From positions 32,001 through 96,000 of IMG/VR virus record IMGVR_UViG_3300045988_147330: a stretch of DNA of 64,000 bases. The stretch is one strand, 5' to 3'. Positions 11,471 to 58,319 of the stretch are shown one piece after another. The notes beneath the pieces were generated by a model, which worked only from the letters and a program-made list of their open reading frames with translations, did no database searches and was not told the origin of the DNA. Made by a program: the position numbers and the translations under genes. The DNA comes from a virus. The stretch's first letter is position 1; the number at the start of each line of letters is the position of its first letter.

Positions 11471-11516
11471 CATTGTGTTTAAGTGTAGAAGCTGACACAT
11501 CTATAACGAAAATTTA

Positions 11517-11540
11517 GGGGGAAGGCGTTCCCCCGATTTT
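11517..11540 (+). terminator. GC hairpin plus T tract in a 5' leader (GGGGGAA-ggcg-TTCCCCC-gatttt)
   Basis: 7-bp perfect stem about 45 nt downstream of the predicted TSS and 25 nt before the ATG at 11565. Confidence 0.45.
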
Positions 11541-11564
11541 AGTAACCGTAAAAGTGATAAAACA

Positions 11565-11768
11565 ATGATTCTACTAGAAATTTTTCAAAACTGCTTTATT
11601 GTAGGGTATGATGGAAAGAAAATACCCTTTGTAAAAGATAATTTCCTGTTTAGTGATACCGGGGAAAGATATATCTTGACCAACAAGGAAAACAGTGAAC
11701 AGGTTAGCCTACCGAAGCAATCGACAATAGTAATTAAACGTAATATTTTTCATGAAGGTATTGATTAG
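11565..11768 (+). CDS. hypothetical protein
   Basis: ORF in array. Confidence 0.45.
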   Translation: MILLEIFQNCFIVGYDGKKIPFVKDNFLFSDTGERYILTNKENSEQVSLPKQSTIVIKRNIFHEGID

Positions 11769-12243
11769 AAAGGATTCAAGCGACATAAGAAACAGACTTG
11801 AACGGTTAGAGTACACCGCTTCCGAAAAATCGTTGGATGGATTTGGTGATGGCATCTTTGTAGACAAGTCAGATAATACTTTTCACGTGAAATCAGAGTG
11901 GGAAGTTATCCGTATGTTTCTTGAAACAGTAGATTGCGGAGATGACGAGAATATGTTTTTTGATTTTGTAGAAAACGATATAACGTCAATAACGCCAACA
12001 ATGCTAGGTAAATATAAATCTTTAATAAAAGTTGATAACTTTCCCATCATTAATACATCTAGCATTCAAGATGTGTTATACCGTGAAGATAGAGAACATA
12101 ACATCATAGAAGTTATTGTTGTTTCAGTGTATGGGATAAAGTTGAAAAGCATAAAAGATGTGGACTTTTCAGATCCTAATGTGGATACAATAATAGAGTA
12201 TATGAAATCGTTGCATAAACAACTAAAAGAATATATCAAATGA
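11752..12243 (+). CDS. hypothetical protein
   Basis: ORF in array. Confidence 0.5.
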   Translation: MKVLIRKDSSDIRNRLERLEYTASEKSLDGFGDGIFVDKSDNTFHVKSEWEVIRMFLETVDCGDDENMFFDFVENDITSITPTMLGKYKSLIKVDNFPIINTSSIQDVLYREDREHNIIEVIVVSVYGIKLKSIKDVDFSDPNVDTIIEYMKSLHKQLKEYIK

Positions 12244-12521
12244 AGTGTAATTTTACGCCAATGGACAAATTTTATGAGATATTAGATTATTATGGTTTGT
12301 CCTACACAGAGTTAAAAAGTAATCATATTCGTGTATTTTACGGAAACAAGAAGCTGTTTGACTATTTTCCACTTCGCATGAAGTTATTTGATTACCATGA
12401 ATGGCATCAGCTTACTTATCCGTTCGTGAAGGGTAAGGCAGATGAATGGGAAATAGAACTTACCATGTTCATTAGCGGAGTATTGGGAGATGAGATGTTT
12501 GAAAAGTTTAAAATATATTAA
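12240..12521 (+). CDS. hypothetical protein
   Basis: ATGA coupling. Confidence 0.5.
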   Translation: MKCNFTPMDKFYEILDYYGLSYTELKSNHIRVFYGNKKLFDYFPLRMKLFDYHEWHQLTYPFVKGKADEWEIELTMFISGVLGDEMFEKFKIY

Positions 12522-12523
12522 TT

Positions 12524-12766
12524 ATGGATAGGAAAGAAAAAGATTTTGTTCCAAAAGCCATAAATTTGTGTGGCAAACGGAGGATGTTGTCTTCAATTAA
12601 AGGATGGGAGATTGTTAAATATAACAATTACTCTAACGGACATGCCAATCCACAAAGTGTCAAGAAGTTGAGAATAACACTTTCAGGACGTGAAGTAATT
12701 GAGTATGTTCTGAACGATGAAGATGATACTATTAAAAAACTTGATAATTATTTTGGTCTTCTATGA
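12524..12766 (+). CDS. hypothetical protein
   Basis: ORF in array. Confidence 0.5.
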   Translation: MDRKEKDFVPKAINLCGKRRMLSSIKGWEIVKYNNYSNGHANPQSVKKLRITLSGREVIEYVLNDEDDTIKKLDNYFGLL

Positions 12767-13008
12767 TGATAAAAGTGGATATACCAGAGCCGTTTATAGA
12801 CGGTGATAATACGATGGTTAACATTACATCTGATTCATTCTGCTATTCTAGCATTGACTCACGGTACGAAGGGTTTCAGAGTGCGTATAAGGATGGGAAT
12901 ATTAATCAGAAGATACAGGGTAAACTAGAGATTATTGCAGATCAATTCAAAGAACTAATAAAAATCATTGAGGATAATGGAAAGACATTTGTTAATACAG
13001 GAGTGTGA
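12763..13008 (+). CDS. hypothetical protein
   Basis: ATGA coupling. Confidence 0.5.
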   Translation: MMIKVDIPEPFIDGDNTMVNITSDSFCYSSIDSRYEGFQSAYKDGNINQKIQGKLEIIADQFKELIKIIEDNGKTFVNTGV

Positions 13009-13021
13009 GAGAGAAGAGGAA

Positions 13022-13486
13022 ATGAAGAAATTACGCAAGCAGCAGAACGATCTTATCAAGAAAGGTCGTATGGTTGAATGTTCTCGCGTAACAGCCAAGA
13101 TAAAGGAGTTCCAGGAAGCATATATAAAGGCTTATCCTGACGGTAAGTATGTAAGAGGTATGGAGATTATCAAAAAGATGTCAGATGATGAAAAAACTGA
13201 TTGGATGATGTATATTAATGCTATTGCTTTCTGTGCTGATATTATACATTCATCCTCTATTGAGCTTAATGAAATGCTAAAGAAGGTACTTCCAGGGTCT
13301 AGTCTTCAAATGTTTGAAACACTTGAAAAGGTAGGTACTATGGCAAAGAATCAAATTATGTGGATGGATAACAATGTGGATGAGGAATATCAGGACGATT
13401 TTGCCAAATATGCTGACGAGATAACCATTATGCTTTTATCATTTGTTAAAAATAAATTTTTGCCGCGAAAGTCAACTACTTACTAA
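13022..13486 (+). CDS. hypothetical protein
   Basis: ORF track 12968..13486 (TTG start); ATG at 13022 after gagaagagga avoids overlap. Confidence 0.5.
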   Translation: MKKLRKQQNDLIKKGRMVECSRVTAKIKEFQEAYIKAYPDGKYVRGMEIIKKMSDDEKTDWMMYINAIAFCADIIHSSSIELNEMLKKVLPGSSLQMFETLEKVGTMAKNQIMWMDNNVDEEYQDDFAKYADEITIMLLSFVKNKFLPRKSTTY

Positions 13487-13651
13487 GCTAAAGACTTGTA
13501 GATGTTGATTAGACTAAGCACTTTGGGTGCTACGTTAGGAGAGAATATATAGTTACCAAGGGGTGCTTGCTCAAGCCCCTTGCTCTAAGGTTAAAACCTC
13601 TCCATAACATTGTCGATGAGTATTTAACGGAGAAATCTGACTTATAGTAAA
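13487..13651 (+). ncRNA. candidate IscB omega-RNA scaffold (5' boundary uncertain, may extend upstream)
   Basis: 165-nt non-coding leader directly upstream of iscB. Nested helices read directly: AGCAC/GTGCT, GGAGAG/CTCTCC enclosing AAGGGG(t)GCTTG/CAAGCCCCTT, and TTACC/GGTTA. Confidence 0.5.
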
Positions 13652-14896
13652 ATGGTTTATATAATTAACAAACAAGGACAAGCACTTATGCCAACTGAAA
13701 GGTTTGGTAAAGTGAGAAGGCTATTAAAGAATGGTCTTTCCCACGTTGTGTGCCGTATCCCATTCACAATTCAATTAGATTATGACACAACAGATTATAC
13801 GCAGCCCATAAGTTTGGGTTTAGATGCTGGTAGCAAGCATATCGGCATATCAGCAACAACAAGTGAAAAGGAATTGTATGCAGCAGATGTGGAACTTAGA
13901 AATGACATTGTAGAGAAACTATCTACTCGTAGAGAACAAAGAAGAACTCGTAGGAGTAGGCTTCGTTATCGCAAGGCGCGTTTCAATAATAGGGTTTCAT
14001 CTAAACGCAAGGGTTGGCTAGCACCATCTATTGAAAACAAAATTCAAACTCATTTGACTGTTGTAGAAAAAATACATAAGTTCCTACCGATAACTAATAT
14101 CGTAGTTGAAACTGCTTCCTTTGATATACAGAAGATTAAGAATCCAAGTATATCTGGAAGTGAATACCAACAAGGAGAACAACTTGATTTCTTTAATGTG
14201 CGTGAGTATATTTTGTTTCGTGATGGTTATACTTGCCAACATTGTAAGGGTAAAAGTAAAGATAAGATCTTGAATGTGCATCACATTGAGAGTAGAAAGA
14301 CGGGAGGGGATAGCCCAAATAACTTGATTACTCTTTGCGAAACTTGCCACAAGGCATATCATAGAGGTGAGTTTGAGTTAAATGTAAAACGTGGAAAGTC
14401 CTTTAGAGATGCCGCCTTTATGGGAATTATGCGATGGAGTCTCTATGATAGACTAAAGAATATCTATCCTAATGTAAATATGACTTTTGGTTATATCACG
14501 AAAAATACCCGTATCACTAACAATCTTCCTAAAGATCATTATGTTGATGCAAGGTGTATAAGTGGTAATCCTGTGGCTAAACCTTTAGGTTATTATTTCT
14601 ATCAGAAGAAAGTAAGATGCCAAAATAGGCAGATACACAAGGCTAATTTCTTAAAGGGTGGCAGGAAGAAACTCAATCAAGCACCATTCTTAGTGAAAGG
14701 TTTTAGGTTGTTTGACCTGGTTGAATACCAAAAGGATTTGTATTACATATTTGGAAGAAGAAGTAGTGGTTCCTTTGATATTAGGAAACTTGATGGAACT
14801 AAAGTGAATAAAGGTTCTATCAATTGCAAGTATTTGCGATTGATAGACAAAAGAAAAAGTATATTAACTGAAAAGAGAATGCAAGTAAATTTATGA
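13652..14896 (+). CDS. iscB: IscB RNA-guided nuclease (PLMP, RuvC-I, Arg-rich bridge helix, RuvC-II, HNH, RuvC-III)
   Basis: QALMPTERFGKVRRLLKNG (PLMP); LGLDAGSKHIG; RREQRRTRRSRLRYRKARFNNR; VVETASFD; CQHCKG..LNVHHIESRKTGGDSPNNLITLCETCHKAYH; KDHYVDARC; 414 aa. Confidence 0.85.
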   Translation: MVYIINKQGQALMPTERFGKVRRLLKNGLSHVVCRIPFTIQLDYDTTDYTQPISLGLDAGSKHIGISATTSEKELYAADVELRNDIVEKLSTRREQRRTRRSRLRYRKARFNNRVSSKRKGWLAPSIENKIQTHLTVVEKIHKFLPITNIVVETASFDIQKIKNPSISGSEYQQGEQLDFFNVREYILFRDGYTCQHCKGKSKDKILNVHHIESRKTGGDSPNNLITLCETCHKAYHRGEFELNVKRGKSFRDAAFMGIMRWSLYDRLKNIYPNVNMTFGYITKNTRITNNLPKDHYVDARCISGNPVAKPLGYYFYQKKVRCQNRQIHKANFLKGGRKKLNQAPFLVKGFRLFDLVEYQKDLYYIFGRRSSGSFDIRKLDGTKVNKGSINCKYLRLIDKRKSILTEKRMQVNL

Positions 14897-15093
14897 CACG
14901 AGAGGAAATACATAAAAACGTTCTTACAATAAGAAATTATTATTTCAGTATTCAAAACAAGCTAGATAATGGGTATAAAATTTCCGATTTGGATATAGAT
15001 TCGGAAACGCACAACAAAATGATTGATGATACCATAAAATCAGCCATTGAAGATTATAAAATGATTCTTGTTTTGGAAAAATACAAATTATAA
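14893..15093 (+). CDS. hypothetical protein
   Basis: Start ATG overlaps the iscB stop (ATGA). Confidence 0.45.
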   Translation: MTREEIHKNVLTIRNYYFSIQNKLDNGYKISDLDIDSETHNKMIDDTIKSAIEDYKMILVLEKYKL

Positions 15094-15097
15094 AATC

Positions 15098-15550
15098 ATG
15101 AAAAAGAAAGAAATAGACGAAGGATATATTGTAGGTGACTTTTATATAGTTAAAAGCCCTATCAAAGATGGATGGCTTCACGTAGTGAATATAAAAACAT
15201 CTTGGCAGATAAAGGTGATGATGGGAGCGAACACGGCAAAGTTTCTAAGCCTTCCACAACAGGAGATATTTGACAGGATTAACGGAATATACATTCAATC
15301 CATGATGTCTTTATACGATTCAGATTATGCCTTGAAAATAGCTAAAGATGCTGTGTCTTATATGTCTGAAAAGGCAAAAAAGGTGGAGAAGGTGAAAAAG
15401 GTGGAGAAGAATGAAAATGAAGATATTGAAAAGGTGAAGAAAGATGAGTTTATGATGAAGATAGCCACATCTTCCGATGAAGAAATCATGGACATGATCA
15501 TAAATGGGGAAATAAAGTACGAATATTTCAAACAAGAACAGGAGGATTAA
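15098..15550 (+). CDS. hypothetical protein, paralog of 17070..17516
   Basis: MKKKEIDEGYIVGDFYI...QQEIFDRINGIYIQSMMSLYDS conserved between the two copies. Confidence 0.6.
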   Translation: MKKKEIDEGYIVGDFYIVKSPIKDGWLHVVNIKTSWQIKVMMGANTAKFLSLPQQEIFDRINGIYIQSMMSLYDSDYALKIAKDAVSYMSEKAKKVEKVKKVEKNENEDIEKVKKDEFMMKIATSSDEEIMDMIINGEIKYEYFKQEQED

Positions 15551-15967
15551 ATGAAAGCATTATTTAAAATGGACTTCGATTGCGGAAGAATGGGCAATCT
15601 TGAAGGAGTATTTATTGCAGACACAGAAGATGTCGAATACTTAGTGAATAACAAAATCAGTGTTTACTTCGGTGAAGTACTTGGCAAGCACTCTGAAATA
15701 TCCGGGTGTGTGGCTGAAAGTGAAATCAAACAAATAACCACTGATGAAAATGTAATCAAGATAGTTGAAGAATATGGGCTTAACAGTGGGTATAATCCAT
15801 TTGAATACACTCTTTGTACATCAGAAACGGAAGATATACCAGATAACGGAGTTGATTGGGATGATTGTACTGTACAAGAATACATAGACTTTATGAGGAA
15901 AGGTATAATACCCCAATATTACGAGAAAGATTATAAAGAATGGCTAAGTAGCCAAAAGGAGGATTAA
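15551..15967 (+). CDS. hypothetical protein
   Basis: ORF in array. Confidence 0.55.
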   Translation: MKALFKMDFDCGRMGNLEGVFIADTEDVEYLVNNKISVYFGEVLGKHSEISGCVAESEIKQITTDENVIKIVEEYGLNSGYNPFEYTLCTSETEDIPDNGVDWDDCTVQEYIDFMRKGIIPQYYEKDYKEWLSSQKED

Positions 15968-15970
15968 ATC

Positions 15971-16069
15971 ATGCAAGACTATATTTCAGATTGGTTCATT
16001 CCTATGGATTTCGGTAATGATATGCCGGACGAAGAACCTAACGGTGAGGATAATTTTAATTTTGAATGA
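15971..16069 (+). CDS. 32-aa acidic peptide MQDYISDWFIPMDFGND..., paralog of 17866..17958
   Basis: Own translation; the first 17 codons differ from the paralog only by 3 synonymous changes. Confidence 0.5.
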   Translation: MQDYISDWFIPMDFGNDMPDEEPNGEDNFNFE

Positions 16070-16956
16070 ATATGGAAAAGAAATTTGAGCTAACAGATAA
16101 CTTTATAATCAATGCTTTTGGAGTGAAGTTATTCCAAATCAAGTGTACAAAGTCTTTCAAATATGCCAAGGAAGGTGATTTGGGAGGATATGTTGAGAAA
16201 GATGAGAACTTAGACCAAGAAAGCAATGCTTGGGTGTCCGGCAATGCTGAGGTGTCCGGCGATGCTTGGGTGTCCGGCAATGCTGAGGTGTCCGGCGATG
16301 CTCGGGTGTACGGCAATGCTCGGGTGTACGGCGATGCTCGGGTGTCCGGCGATGCTGAGGTGTCCGGCGATGCTCGGGTGTACGGCAATGCTCGGGTGTA
16401 CGGCGATGCTCGGGTGTACGGCGATGCTCGGGTGTACGGCAATGCTGAGGTGTCCGGCAATGCTGAGGTGTACGGCAATGCTGAGGTGTCCGGCAATGCT
16501 TGGGTGTCCGGCAATGCTCGGGTGTCCGGCAATGCTTGGGTGTCCGGCAATGCTGAGGTGTCCGGCGATGCTCGGGTGTACGGCAATGCTCGGGTGTACG
16601 GCAATGCTGAGGTGTCCGGCAATGCTTGGGTGTACGGCGATGCTTGGGTGTACGGCAATGCTCGGGTGTACGGCAATGCTGAGGTGTCCGGCAATGCTTG
16701 GGTGTCCGGCAATGCTGAGATAGACAACAATAATAAACATTGCGGATTTGACTGTTTCGGTTCTGCCAACCGCCACACCCATGCCTACCTGACAAAAGAA
16801 AACAAAGTGGAAATAACATGCGGATGCTTCCGTGGGAGTATTGAAGAGTTTGAAAAGAGAGTGGAAGAAACCCATTCGGGCACAATCTATGAGAAGCAGT
16901 ATAAAGCCATCATCGATGTTATTAAAATTAAATTTGGGTTGACTGATTTGATATAG
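16066..16956 (+). CDS. hexapeptide-repeat (left-handed beta-helix-like) protein
   Basis: About 28 consecutive G[ND]A[ERW]V[SY] hexads between an N-terminal GDLGGYVEKDENL segment and a Cys/His-containing C-terminal domain. Confidence 0.75.
   Translation: MNMEKKFELTDNFIINAFGVKLFQIKCTKSFKYAKEGDLGGYVEKDENLDQESNAWVSGNAEVSGDAWVSGNAEVSGDARVYGNARVYGDARVSGDAEVSGDARVYGNARVYGDARVYGDARVYGNAEVSGNAEVYGNAEVSGNAWVSGNARVSGNAWVSGNAEVSGDARVYGNARVYGNAEVSGNAWVYGDAWVYGNARVYGNAEVSGNAWVSGNAEIDNNNKHCGFDCFGSANRHTHAYLTKENKVEITCGCFRGSIEEFEKRVEETHSGTIYEKQYKAIIDVIKIKFGLTDLI
16225..16728 (+). repeat. 18-bp coding tandem repeat, 28 units
   Basis: Units vary at only three codons: aat/gat, gag/cgg/tgg and tcc/tac. Confidence 0.9.
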
Positions 16957-17069: not shown

Positions 17070-17516
17070 ATGAAAAAGAAAGAAATAGACGAAGGATATA
17101 TTGTAGGTGACTTTTATATTCTCAAAGATATAATTAAAGATGGATATATTCACATAATAAATATAAAAACCATGTGGCAGATAAAGGTATACATGGGAGA
17201 AAATGCAGCAAGTTTCCTTTGTCTTCCACAACAGGAAATATTTGACAGGATCAACGGAATATATATTCAGTCCATGATGTCTTTATATGATTCAGAATAC
17301 GCCTTAAACATAGCTAAAAATGCAAAATCATACATGGCTCGTAAAGCTAAGAAGGTTAAAAAATCTGATGAGAATGAAGATATAGAAAAGGTGAAAAGAG
17401 ATCAGTTTATGATGAAAATAGCTTCCTCTTCTGATGAGGAAATTATGGATATGATTGTCAATGGAGAAATTAATTATGAATATTTTAAACATGACAAGGA
17501 AAAGGAGGATGTATGA
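17070..17516 (+). CDS. hypothetical protein, paralog of 15098..15550
   Basis: See 15098..15550. Confidence 0.6.
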   Translation: MKKKEIDEGYIVGDFYILKDIIKDGYIHIINIKTMWQIKVYMGENAASFLCLPQQEIFDRINGIYIQSMMSLYDSEYALNIAKNAKSYMARKAKKVKKSDENEDIEKVKRDQFMMKIASSSDEEIMDMIVNGEINYEYFKHDKEKEDV

Positions 17517-45904: not shown

Positions 45905-45949
45905 GCATAAAATTCGTTAAACAATTTGGTTATGAGCAGTTTTGTGCAG

Positions 45950-45957
45950 TATATTTG
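45950..45957 (+). promoter_or_regulatory. Bacteroidota-type -7 box (TATATTTG)
   Basis: Exact TAnnTTTG 26 nt upstream of the ATG at 45983; divergent from 45897-45904. Confidence 0.5.
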
Positions 45958-45982
45958 CTTAAAAATAAAAAATATAATATCA

Positions 45983-46351
45983 ATGAATGTATTAAGTTTA
46001 TGTGATGGTATAGCCTGCGGTAGAATTGCTCTTGAACGAGCAGGGATAAAGGTGAATAAGTATTACGCAAGCGAGATAAATGAACCGTCTATTAAGGTGG
46101 CATTAGACAATTATCCTGATATCATAGAGTTAGGTGATATCAGGAATTGGAAAGAATGGAATATAGAATGGAAAGATATTGATCTGTTGATTGGAGGTAC
46201 ACCATGCCAGGATTTCTCCCGACTTGGAAAGGAGAAGCTAAACTTTGATGGTGAACGTTCTGGGCTGTTCTTTCAATATGTGAACATACTTAATCATATA
46301 AAACAGTTTAATCCAAATGTAAAATTTAGGCAAATGCGGCTATGTGTATAA
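45983..46351 (+). pseudogene. C5 cytosine DNA methyltransferase, truncated after motif IV
   Basis: LSLCDGIACG (motif I), GGTPCQDFS (motif IV), then the frame runs into the TnpB fragment just where the ENV motif is expected. Confidence 0.7.
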
Positions 46352-58204: not shown

Positions 58205-58276
58205 GGTGCTTTGGATGAGCGGTTTAGTCAACAGTCTGCAAAACTGATAACGGCGGTTCGATTCCGCCAAGCACCT
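58205..58276 (+). tRNA. tRNA-Cys (anticodon GCA)
   Basis: GGTGCTT/AAGCACC acceptor stem, GGCGG-TTCGATT-CCGCC T arm, anticodon loop CTGCAAA, GG in the D loop. Confidence 0.75.
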
Positions 58277-58319
58277 CTTGTTCTTGTATTTCAAATTTTT
58301 GTTTTTTTGTTCATAATAA

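What the first reader, a model, noticed from the sequence alone, without database searches (positions are those of the whole stretch)
13487..15093. Phage-borne full-length IscB with a structured upstream leader, no TnpA, and translational coupling to the next gene
The 414-aa ORF has every IscB hallmark in the right order:
- PLMP-like N-terminus (QALMP...RRLLKNG)
- RuvC-I (LGLDAGSKHIG)
- arginine-rich bridge helix
- RuvC-II (VVETASFD)
- HNH (C..C..HHI..GG..NL..LC..CH..H)
- RuvC-III (HYVDARC)

No catalytic residue is obviously lost. The 165-nt non-coding leader directly upstream folds by eye into nested GC-rich helices. That is where IscB omega-RNAs are encoded. No Y1 transposase (TnpA) appears anywhere in the window. 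The iscB stop overlaps the start of the following ORF (ATGA at 14893-14896), so the gene looks embedded in a phage early operon rather than freshly inserted. An apparently active RNA-guided nuclease kept by a phage could serve homing, inter-phage competition or host-genome targeting.
Basis: partly seen in the sequence, partly recalled or inferred. Interest (0 to 1): 0.8.

Follow-up and report, generated by a model that had tools for sequence, protein, structure and literature searches.

The report
IscB guide-RNA nuclease element in crAss-like phage
The stretch is a 1.4-kb selfish insert in a gut phage that encodes an RNA-guided DNA cutter (IscB, a small ancestor of Cas9) and its guide RNA; this is a known kind of element, but this copy has lost the ends that a transposase needs, so it can probably spread only by cutting and converting related phages that lack it.

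Summary
ORF 13652..14896 is a full-length IscB with every catalytic residue conserved. The leader is a HEARO/omega-RNA, 13471..13628, E 1.5e-15.

- Related phage contigs carry an empty site in which 13470 joins directly to 14893. The insert is therefore exactly 13471..14892 (1,422 bp).
- The ATGA "coupling" is the phage's own stop/start overlap. It is also the element's target-adjacent motif: ATGAC here, ATGAA in relatives, the reverse complement of the published TTCAT motif of GstIscB.
- IscB has no stop codon of its own and borrows the TGA of that motif.

No TnpA was found in the window or in 160 related viral loci.

This copy lacks the hairpin at its iscB-distal end, has a degenerate hairpin at its omega-RNA end, and lacks one conserved omega-RNA stem. 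The gene is nevertheless under strong purifying selection (dN/dS about 0.08).

Best reading: a non-autonomous IS200/IS605-type IscB element that now survives by RNA-guided homing. Its guide, AATTTTTGCCGCGAAA, is the last 16 nt before the upstream phage gene's original stop codon. Its target is the empty site in co-infecting relatives.

Identity is near certain. Activity and homing are inferred. New member of a known kind; moderate interest.

The parts
13455..13470 (+). Inferred 16-nt guide-encoding flank, AATTTTTGCCGCGAAA. It is the last 16 nt before the upstream phage gene's original stop codon and lies immediately 5' of the omega-RNA scaffold.
   Evidence: The position is inferred from IscB biology: the guide lies 5' of the scaffold, outside the transposon end (PMC10055086). 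The sequence occurs once in the window. The guide length was not measured.
13471..14892 (+). The whole inserted IscB element, 1,422 bp.
   Evidence: In empty-site alleles, window 13470 is contiguous with 14893 (for example L082-L084 and L088-L091). There is no boundary ambiguity: the flank ends in A while the insert ends in T, and the insert starts with G while the right flank starts with A.
13471..13628 (+). Omega-RNA scaffold (HEARO RNA).
   Evidence: Rfam RF02033 matches model positions 1-211, 79.1 bits, E 1.5e-15. In a 25-sequence alignment, 22 of 31 predicted pairs show compensatory changes.
13471..13515 (+). Decayed hairpin just inside the transposon right end (RE). This region is also the 5' guide-adaptor hairpin of the omega-RNA.
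   Evidence: The DNA fold of the window is -3.2 kcal/mol, z -0.7. Relative L059 has CCCACAGG-TCTTTAG-CCTGTGGG at -12 kcal/mol, z -4.2. cmscan marks the pairs as non-canonical.
13591..13594 (+). Position where a conserved omega-RNA stem of about 46 nt is missing.
   Evidence: Relatives carry about 46 extra nt here. The stem (alignment columns 249-298) is supported by covariation. Rfam skips 46 model positions here.
13652..14896 (+). iscB ORF, 414 aa. The last base of its final Leu codon and its TGA stop (14893-14896) lie in the right flank.
   Evidence: dN/dS is about 0.08 against 39 relatives.
14873..14892 (+). Decayed transposon left end (LE). The hairpin near this end and the gene's own stop codon have been lost through a deletion of about 45 nt.
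   Evidence: The 418-aa relatives end ...TAA, then a hairpin with a CTAAAGA loop, then GGGTTTCCTTG, then 10-11 nt, then ATGA. The window fold here is -0.4 kcal/mol, z +0.8, against z -2.6 to -4.1 in L059 and L003.
14893..14898 (+). Target-adjacent motif ATGACA. It is at once the start codon of the downstream phage ORF, the stop of the upstream ORF in empty alleles, and the stop of IscB in this genome.
   Evidence: All 12 distinct right flanks of the close copies begin AT[G/A]A. In 43 distinct hairpin-bearing tails, position 5 is A in 37. The motif fits the reverse complement of the published GstIscB TTCAT and OgeuIscB NWRRNA.
12968..13486 (+). Upstream phage ORF of unknown function. Its C-terminus is extended by 4 aa (..LPRK becomes ..LPRKSTTY), read from the first 16 nt of the element.
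   Evidence: No PHROG match.
14893..15093 (+). Downstream phage ORF (66 aa). It is native to the phage and not part of the element.
   Evidence: It is present directly after the upstream ORF in all empty alleles.

Best explanation
Positions 13471..14892 are a non-autonomous IS200/IS605-type (ISC) element in a phage of about 99 kb that looks crAss-like and probably infects Bacteroidales. The element carries an omega-RNA gene and iscB.

Its omega-RNA end is the transposon right end. Its iscB-distal end is the transposon left end, which abuts the motif ATGA(C). On the other strand this reads (G)TCAT, the family's TnpA target and TAM.

Proposed mechanism:
1. Read-through transcription of the phage's co-directional gene block yields an RNA. 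Its 5' part, AATTTTTGCCGCGAAA, comes from the upstream gene. Its 3' part is the scaffold that binds IscB.
2. The complex recognises that 16-mer followed by ATGAC. This combination exists only where the element is absent, so the carrier genome is immune.
3. A co-infecting relative with an empty site is cut.
4. Repair from the carrier genome copies the element in (non-restorative homing), or the competitor is simply damaged.

This copy has lost the left-end hairpin, most of the right-end hairpin and its own stop codon, and no TnpA is at hand. Homing is therefore probably its only remaining way to spread.

Shown: identity of protein and RNA, exact boundaries, the empty-site polymorphism, the TAM pattern, hairpin loss, purifying selection.

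Inferred: transcription, guide length, cleavage activity, homing.
For: Identity:
- IscB family and catalytic residues.
- HEARO hit and covariation.

Boundaries and target:
- Exact empty site 13470|14893 in many related contigs; left flanks are up to 99.5% identical.
- The intact 16-nt target plus ATGAC is present in 6 of 86 empty loci. One of them is L001, which carries its own IscB at another site.
- In the window, the guide match is unique and is followed by GTCAAC, not the TAM.

Family behaviour:
- At least 12 different right flanks all start AT[G/A]A.
- Each left flank, where an empty allele was found, is followed there by an ATG-initial motif, ATGA(N) in all but one case.
- 37 of 43 hairpin-bearing tails have ATGAA.
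- This matches the published architecture: the omega-RNA is bounded by the RE, and the GstIscB TAM is TTCAT (PMC10055086).

Loss of transposase dependence:
- No TnpA found.
- Hairpins are lost in the window but strong in relatives.

Continued function:
- dN/dS is 0.06-0.10 at dS 0.33-0.51.
- About 95% of the 92 related copies have intact ORFs.
- The 5' guide-adaptor hairpin is experimentally dispensable in OrufIscB (PMC13180657).
- TnpA-independent homing has been proposed for OMEGA nucleases and shown for TnpB on plasmids (review PMC13565253).
Against: - There are no expression or cleavage data.
- The window's omega-RNA lacks a stem that is conserved with covariation across phage and bacterial relatives. 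It scores below Rfam's gathering threshold (79.1 against 83; full-length relatives score 136-151). The RNP could be impaired.
- TAM position 5 is C here. That is a minority variant, seen in 2 of 43 tails.
- Only 6 of 86 sampled empty alleles match the guide perfectly. The rest have 1-4 synonymous mismatches in the TAM-proximal 9 nt.
- This particular insertion was seen only in one lineage: 5 ENA contigs, none in IMG/VR or the JGI metagenomes. Spread by homing has therefore not been observed.
- How an element with decayed ends first reached this site is unexplained.
- About 25 kb of the roughly 99-kb genome was not examined for TnpA.
Confidence: 0.62

Rival explanations
1. It is still an ordinary non-autonomous IS. 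A TnpA supplied in trans by the host or by another element excises and re-inserts it. IscB serves only to restore the donor site after excision (restorative homing).
For: - The insertion is precise, has no target-site duplication and sits next to the family's TAM.
- Relatives carry canonical hairpins near both ends with the same TCTTTAG loop.
- Most iscB genes lack an adjacent tnpA and are thought to be mobilised in trans.
- The family occupies many sites.
Against: - The window copy has no left-end hairpin (fold -0.4 kcal/mol, z +0.8). Its right-end hairpin is no better than shuffled sequence.
- No TnpA was found in the window, in 160 viral loci, or in the 10 kb upstream in a related genome.
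- The closest cellular relatives of this IscB are in Firmicutes at 72% identity or less, not in Bacteroidales hosts.
Confidence: 0.12
2. It is a stranded, decaying passenger. The omega-RNA deletion has inactivated the complex, and the ORF is intact only because too little time has passed.
For: - The HEARO score is below the gathering threshold, and a stem supported by covariation is missing.
- Both transposon ends have decayed.
- Some relatives are pseudogenes: L035, L041, L074/L075.
Against: - dN/dS is about 0.08 over dS 0.33-0.51.
- The short omega-RNA form occurs in at least 11 other loci at several sites, and 10 of these have intact ORFs.
- The comparisons with copies that carry the short form (L008, L010, L026, L037, L046, L049, L138) give dN/dS 0.06-0.10.
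- The identical protein is found on 5 contigs.
Confidence: 0.15
3. The nuclease has been domesticated for a benefit to the phage other than its own spread. Examples would be killing competitors without conversion, cutting host DNA, or binding DNA as a regulator.
For: - The element is retained under purifying selection without mobility signals.
- Phage-encoded, domesticated TnpB-like regulators are known (TldR; listing).
Against: - The guide is simply the adjacent phage flank, as in every mobile copy.
- The catalytic residues are intact, so this is not a nuclease-dead regulator.
- Presence is polymorphic and site-variable, like a selfish element, rather than fixed like a domesticated gene.
- Killing of empty-site competitors uses the same molecular mechanism as homing and cannot be told apart from it here.
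Confidence: 0.08

Closest known systems
ISGst5 IscB element of Geobacillus stearothermophilus (Meers et al. 2023; PMC10055086)
   Same: [quoted passage not shown]
- The guide is the flank beyond that end.
- The TAM TTCAT is the reverse complement of the ATGAA seen at the phage copies.
- There is no adjacent tnpA.
- The nuclease cuts the empty joint.
   Different: - The host is a phage genome, not a bacterial chromosome.
- The window copy has lost the TnpA hairpins near both ends and its own stop codon.
- No cognate TnpA was identified.
OgeuIscB / OrufIscB OMEGA nucleases from human-gut metagenomes (PDB 7utn, 7xht, 9nvu)
   Same: - Same domain order and the same catalytic residues (phmmer E 1e-52).
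- The window's TAM ATGACA fits OgeuIscB's NWRRNA.
- The omega-RNA is of the HEARO type.
   Different: - The protein is 414 aa against about 495 aa.
- The omega-RNA scaffold is about 158-180 nt and lacks one conserved stem and the guide-adaptor hairpin.
- Activity is untested.
Free-standing phage homing endonucleases (T4 Seg/Mob, HNH type) and TnpB-driven IS605 gene drive on plasmids (review PMC13565253)
   Same: - Presence or absence at one exact site among related phages.
- The carrier is immune because its own site is disrupted.
- Spread is expected by double-strand-break repair during co-infection.
   Different: - The target is read by an RNA copied from the flank, not by the protein.
- Homing has not been demonstrated for IscB in any phage.
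HEARO/IscB-like 'HNH endonucleases' annotated in other phages (phrog_119; Staphylococcus Silviavirus and Kayvirus, Clostridium phage c-st, Ralstonia phages)
   Same: Same protein family in phage genomes. HEARO RNA has been reported in Silviavirus genomes (PMC13346280).
   Different: These are only 30-52% identical. Their insertion sites, TAMs and end structures were not analysed here.

Membership tests
IscB (NCBIfam NF040563, RNA-guided endonuclease IscB) | N-terminal PLMP/RRXRR domain with RuvC-I, and an arginine-rich bridge helix | tested here: met
   Pfam RRXRR covers residues 2-175 over the full profile, 6e-63. D58 lies in LGLDAG, and RRTRRSRLRYRKARF starts at residue 97.
IscB (NCBIfam NF040563, RNA-guided endonuclease IscB) | HNH domain inserted between RuvC-II and RuvC-III, with the catalytic residues present | tested here: met
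   E153, H210/H211, the NNLITLCETCH..H segment, and H296/D299 align with OgeuIscB. Pfam HNH 8.5e-11. The equivalog scores 368 bits against a cutoff of 175.
IscB (NCBIfam NF040563, RNA-guided endonuclease IscB) | C-terminal TAM-interacting domain | tested here: inconclusive
   Residues 335-414 are present and conserved among the phage copies. phmmer did not align them to solved IscBs. No structure was predicted.
IscB (NCBIfam NF040563, RNA-guided endonuclease IscB) | Guide- and TAM-dependent cleavage of double-stranded DNA | not testable with these tools
   This needs a biochemical or plasmid-interference assay.
HEARO / IscB omega-RNA (Rfam RF02033) | Covariance-model score at or above the gathering threshold | tested here: not met
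   79.1 bits against 83, although E is 1.5e-15 and the model is covered end to end. Relatives score 96.8-150.9 bits. The shortfall is explained by two missing hairpins.
HEARO / IscB omega-RNA (Rfam RF02033) | Conserved helices supported by covariation, located directly 5' of iscB on the same strand | tested here: met
   22 of 31 RNAalifold pairs show compensatory changes. The window keeps the long-range helix, the AGC..GCT helix and the ACCAAGGGG..CCCCTTG helix, and lacks the helix at columns 249-298.
IS200/IS605 (ISC) transposon | Y1 (HUH) transposase TnpA, in cis or nearby | tested here: not met
   None in the window or in any viral locus. This is usual for iscB elements: about 1.5% have a tnpA nearby. 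About 25 kb of the phage genome was not examined.
IS200/IS605 (ISC) transposon | Imperfect-palindrome hairpins just inside both ends | tested here: not met
   In the window, the right-end fold is -3.2 kcal/mol (z -0.7) and the left-end fold is -0.4 kcal/mol (z +0.8). Relatives have strong hairpins at both ends with a shared TCTTTAG loop.
IS200/IS605 (ISC) transposon | Insertion next to a fixed 4-5-nt motif, with no target-site duplication and no terminal inverted repeats | tested here: met
   The empty-site junction shows no duplication. AT[G/A]A is present at every right flank. There are no terminal inverted repeats.
Homing genetic element | Presence/absence polymorphism at one exact site, with the target intact in empty alleles and disrupted in the carrier | tested here: met
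   The perfect target plus TAM is present in 6 of 86 empty loci.
Homing genetic element | Nuclease-dependent conversion of empty alleles, with co-conversion of the flanks | not tested
   This needs co-infection experiments or read-level population data. The occupied allele was available from only one lineage.
Type II CRISPR-Cas9 | Adjacent CRISPR array and tracrRNA, and a REC lobe | tested here: not met
   There is no repeat array within 12000-15900. The protein is 414 aa. The best Cas9d score is 20.7 bits against a cutoff of 375.

The most novel reading that the evidence does not exclude
In this crAss-like phage lineage, IscB elements have given up transposition. They have shed both TnpA hairpins and their own stop codon, and they persist as pure RNA-guided homing cassettes, in effect a natural gene drive among co-infecting phages.

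Their TAM, ATGA, coincides with stop/start overlaps. This lets them slot between genes without breaking either reading frame, and the motif supplies their stop codon.

As a side effect they reshape the block of small genes. Many copies join the left flank of one ATGA site to the right flank of another, and the genes in between are deleted.
Probability: 0.4. Interest if true: 0.65.

Novelty: new member of a known kind. Interest (0 to 1): 0.42.

Why it matters
About 98% of iscB genes have no transposase next to them, and what keeps them going is still debated.

This locus is a natural case that bears on that question:
- The transposase substrates (the end hairpins) are gone.
- The nuclease gene is under strong purifying selection.
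- The guide's target, an empty site with the right motif, exists in closely related phages of a very abundant human-gut phage group.

That makes TnpA-independent, RNA-guided homing between phages directly testable with a defined guide, target and TAM.

It also gives a simple explanation for why such elements sit exactly on gene junctions: the motif ATGA is both the TAM and a stop/start overlap.

Otherwise the protein and the RNA are ordinary members of the OMEGA IscB class.

Tried and rejected
1. **Other carriers of this insertion.** Scans for the left junction of this exact insertion found nothing in IMG/VR or in the JGI metagenomes. Only an exact-protein look-up found it, on 5 ENA contigs.

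2. **Extending beyond the window to look for TnpA.**
   - Look-ups with the first and last large ORFs failed because no identical product is on record.
   - An 80-aa ORF returned related genomes only. None had a Y1 transposase in the 10 kb upstream.

3. **Hairpin-bearing copies at the same sites as hairpin-less ones.**
   - This would show decay in place.
   - No such copy was seen at sites A-G. Site H does carry three different tail deletions.
   - The question stays open: is the identical deletion at at least 7 sites due to mobility of the deleted form, to gene conversion, or to recurrence?

4. **Escape signature in the target.** I considered whether the TAM-proximal 9 nt of the target are hypervariable in empty alleles. 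Diversity is high there (pi up to 0.7) next to a 37-nt invariant stretch, but it is not clearly above other third-codon positions. I rejected this as evidence.

5. **TAM logo.** A first regex-based logo was contaminated by spurious matches. I replaced it with counts from verified tails.

6. **Literature.**
   - Searches for IscB in crAss-like phages found nothing specific. One paper notes a variable 'HNH endonuclease' in crAssBcn phages.
   - A search for papers on dispensable IscB omega-RNA hairpins listed nothing relevant. The evidence used instead came from reading PMC13180657.

7. **Cas9 reading.** No CRISPR array and no REC lobe, so Cas9 was rejected.

8. **Megablast of the window.** Against GenBank phages it gave only short matches to Bacteroides salyersiae phages. 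The phage lineage itself is uncultured.
Full report
**1. What is at the coordinates**

ORF 13652..14896 (+, 414 aa) is real.
- It matches Pfam RRXRR over the full profile (6e-63) and Pfam HNH (8.5e-11).
- It scores 368 bits on NCBI's equivalog model for RNA-guided endonuclease IscB, against a cutoff of 175.
- Against solved structures, the best hits are OgeuIscB and other IscBs (E 1e-51 to 7e-53).
- The alignment keeps D58, E153, H210/H211, the downstream N..H of the HNH domain, and H296/D299.

**2. The leader**

A scan of 12500-16000 against all Rfam families gives one significant hit.
- The family is HEARO (RF02033), the RNA now known as the IscB omega-RNA.
- It spans 13471..13628 on the + strand and covers model positions 1-211, at 79.1 bits and E 1.5e-15.
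- The score is just under the gathering score of 83.
- The RNA begins 16 nt inside the upstream ORF, not at the start of the non-coding gap.

I aligned the regions upstream of 25 iscB genes: the window, 10 viral relatives and 14 bacterial or archaeal relatives.
- RNAalifold predicts 31 pairs, and 22 of them show compensatory double changes.
- The window keeps three helices. It lacks a fourth (alignment columns 249-298, about 46 nt) that most relatives have.
- Full-length relatives score 136-151 bits on HEARO. A relative without the first hairpin scores 96.8. Short forms like the window's score 71-79.

**3. Boundaries, and what the ATGA is**

IMG/VR holds 286 relatives of the protein, and the best 80 were fetched. 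Most come from contigs of roughly 45-100 kb. A further 80 loci hold homologues of the upstream gene.

In dozens of these loci, window 12902..13470 runs straight into window 14893 onward. The junction reads ...TTGCCGCGAAA|ATGACACGAG.... Several consequences follow.
- The insert is exactly 13471..14892 (1,422 bp), and 13471 is HEARO model position 1.
- In the empty allele, the upstream gene ends ..CGA AAA TGA and the next gene starts at the ATG of that same ATGA. The overlap belongs to the phage.
- After insertion, the upstream ORF reads 16 nt into the element and gains four residues (STTY).
- IscB has no stop codon of its own. Its last Leu codon takes the A of the ATGA, and its stop is the TGA.
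- The "translational coupling" is therefore a by-product of where the element lands.

**4. The family and its target motif**

Close copies (93-96% aa identity) sit at many other places in related phage genomes. Every right flank starts ATGAA, ATGAC or ATAAA, directly at the start codon of a phage gene.

Two of those positions are empty in the window: 12240 and 15098.

Wherever an empty allele of a left flank could be found, it too continues with an ATG-initial motif there. In all but one case this is ATGA(N). One copy abuts ATGCG instead.

More distant copies (78-87% identity, 418 aa) differ at the tail.
- They end with their own TAA, then a hairpin with a CTAAAGA loop, then GGGTTTCCTTG, then 10-11 nt, then ATGA.
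- Among 43 distinct tails of this type, position 5 is A in 37.

[quoted passage not shown] They also report that GstIscB and its TnpA both recognise TTCAT, the reverse complement of ATGAA (PMC10055086). The window's ATGACA also fits the NWRRNA motif reported for OgeuIscB. So the ATGA is the TAM and target-site motif. The element's iscB-distal end is the transposon's left end.

**5. State of this copy**

Folding the strand opposite to iscB gives the following.

| Copy | Right end (omega-RNA end) | Left end (iscB-distal end) |
|---|---|---|
| Relatives | CCCACAGG-TCTTTAG-CCTGTGGG, -12 kcal/mol, z -4.2 (L059) | CCCATAAA-TCTTTAG-TTTATGGG (L059); z -2.6 (L059) and -4.1 (L003) |
| Window | -3.2 kcal/mol, z -0.7 | -0.4 kcal/mol, z +0.8 |

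- The relatives' hairpins are typical IS200/IS605 hairpins near the ends.
- In the window, a deletion of about 45 nt removed the left-end hairpin together with the original stop codon.
- The 414-aa tail is shared with copies at at least seven other right flanks.
- The body of the window's element (13474-14873) is closest in DNA to hairpin-bearing copies (L003 and L044, 93.7-93.9%). Other 414-aa copies are 90-93% identical. This points to gene conversion among copies.

No TnpA was found.
- No PF01797 among 31 small ORFs of the window.
- No HUH..Y pattern.
- No tblastn hit with three TnpAs recovered next to bacterial relatives (L174, L187, L201), either in the window or in any of the 160 viral loci.
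- None in the 10 kb upstream in related genomes.

**6. Is the gene alive?**

- Against 39 distinct 414-aa copies, dN/dS is 0.06-0.10 at dS 0.33-0.51.
- About 95% of the 92 copies are intact.
- The identical protein occurs on five contigs of about 99 kb in the same context.
- The short omega-RNA form recurs in at least 11 other loci, and 10 of them have intact ORFs.
- In OrufIscB, 42 nt of the 5' guide-adaptor hairpin can be removed without loss of activity, whereas truncating the nexus hairpin reduces it (PMC13180657).
- I could not tell which named hairpin the window's missing internal stem corresponds to. This is the main doubt about activity.

**7. Most likely mechanism**

- The guide is the 16 nt before 13471, AATTTTTGCCGCGAAA. 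It occurs once in the window and is followed there by GTCAAC, so the carrier genome is not a target.
- Empty alleles carry the same 16-mer followed by ATGAC in 6 of 86 loci. The others differ by 1-4 synonymous changes in the last 9 nt.
- A co-infecting relative with a matching empty site would be cut. Repair from the carrier would copy the element in.
- The 2026 review PMC13565253 calls this 'transposon non-restorative homing'. It cites it as shown for TnpB on plasmids and as theoretical for phages.
- Shown here: the parts and the polymorphism. Not shown: transcription, cleavage and conversion.

**8. Rivals**

- Trans-mobilisation by TnpA is disfavoured by the missing hairpins and by the absence of any TnpA. 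In addition, cellular relatives of this IscB are in Firmicutes at 72% identity or less. One 95% hit in a so-called Odoribacter MAG is probably a mis-binned phage contig.
- A dead relic is disfavoured by the selection data.
- Domestication for another role has no positive evidence.

**9. Side observations on the family**

Many copies join the left flank of one ATGA site to the right flank of another, and the DNA in between is missing.
- In L001 the element replaces window 11506-12239.
- In L022 it replaces 14962-15090.
- Some genomes hold two direct copies.
- Recombination between copies, or homing into a genome that already holds a copy nearby, would produce this pattern.
- It is unresolved how the identical hairpin-less tail came to lie at several sites.

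**10. Comparison and verdict**

Phage-borne IscB-like genes are common. They form phrog_119, annotated 'HNH endonuclease', there are hits in 39 GenBank phage records, and HEARO has been noted in Staphylococcus phages. TnpA-less iscB is the rule.

This is a new member of a known kind. Three features are worth noting:
- a defined empty-site target in related gut phages;
- decayed transposase substrates;
- a TAM that doubles as a gene-junction overlap and as the nuclease's stop codon.

The window is probably from a crAss-like phage. The evidence is a crAss001_48 domain, giant ORFs of 2,575 and 1,876 aa, a genome of about 99 kb, and short matches to Bacteroides salyersiae phages.

Noticed in passing
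window 14816-14847: An inverted repeat lies inside the 3' coding region of iscB (14-nt arms, 4-nt loop), 45 nt from the right end of the element. In relatives, a TGC to TGT change is matched by a TTG to ATA change, which keeps a C:G pair as T:A even though the second change alters the protein (Leu to Ile). This looks like a conserved hairpin of unknown role.
   Followed up: partly
L001 5794-7241; L013; L022 5776-7245; L012 (two copies): In related phages the element often replaces phage DNA rather than simply interrupting it. Its left flank comes from one ATGA site and its right flank from another (window 11506-12239 is missing in L001, and 14962-15090 in L022). Some genomes carry two direct copies about 4 kb apart. 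This suggests that IscB copies drive deletions in this block of small genes.
   Followed up: partly
L152 and L160, 7948-8004: A 57-nt remnant of the iscB tail (matching window 14840-14896) lies at the site that corresponds to window 15098. This is a scar of an earlier copy that was mostly deleted.
   Followed up: no
window 13425-13470: Across 54 empty-site haplotypes, 13425-13461 is almost invariant. The last 9 nt before the ATGA vary at synonymous positions (pi up to 0.7). These 9 nt are the TAM-proximal part of the window's guide target. This could reflect escape from cleavage, but it is not clearly above background.
   Followed up: partly
window 15098-15550, 16066-16956, 17070-17516: Two paralogous ORFs of about 150 aa, both starting ATGAAAAAGAAAGAAATAG, flank a 296-aa protein made of GNAxVxG-like repeats (phrog_7964). 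The repeat region opens long ORFs in several other frames. The start of each paralogue is an IscB insertion site in other phages.
   Followed up: no
window 45926-46351: This 141-aa ORF matches only the first 102 of 324 positions of the C-5 cytosine DNA methylase profile (PF00145). It may be a split or truncated methyltransferase.
   Followed up: no
site H loci L029, L037, L048: At one and the same insertion site, three different deletions of the left-end hairpin are seen. In L029 the inner hairpin is gone and the outer stem is kept. L048 shows another partial form. L037 is fully deleted. Hairpin loss can therefore happen in place, and more than once.
   Followed up: partly
window 58205-58277: A tRNA-Cys (GCA) gene lies between the two giant minus-strand ORFs.
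   Followed up: no
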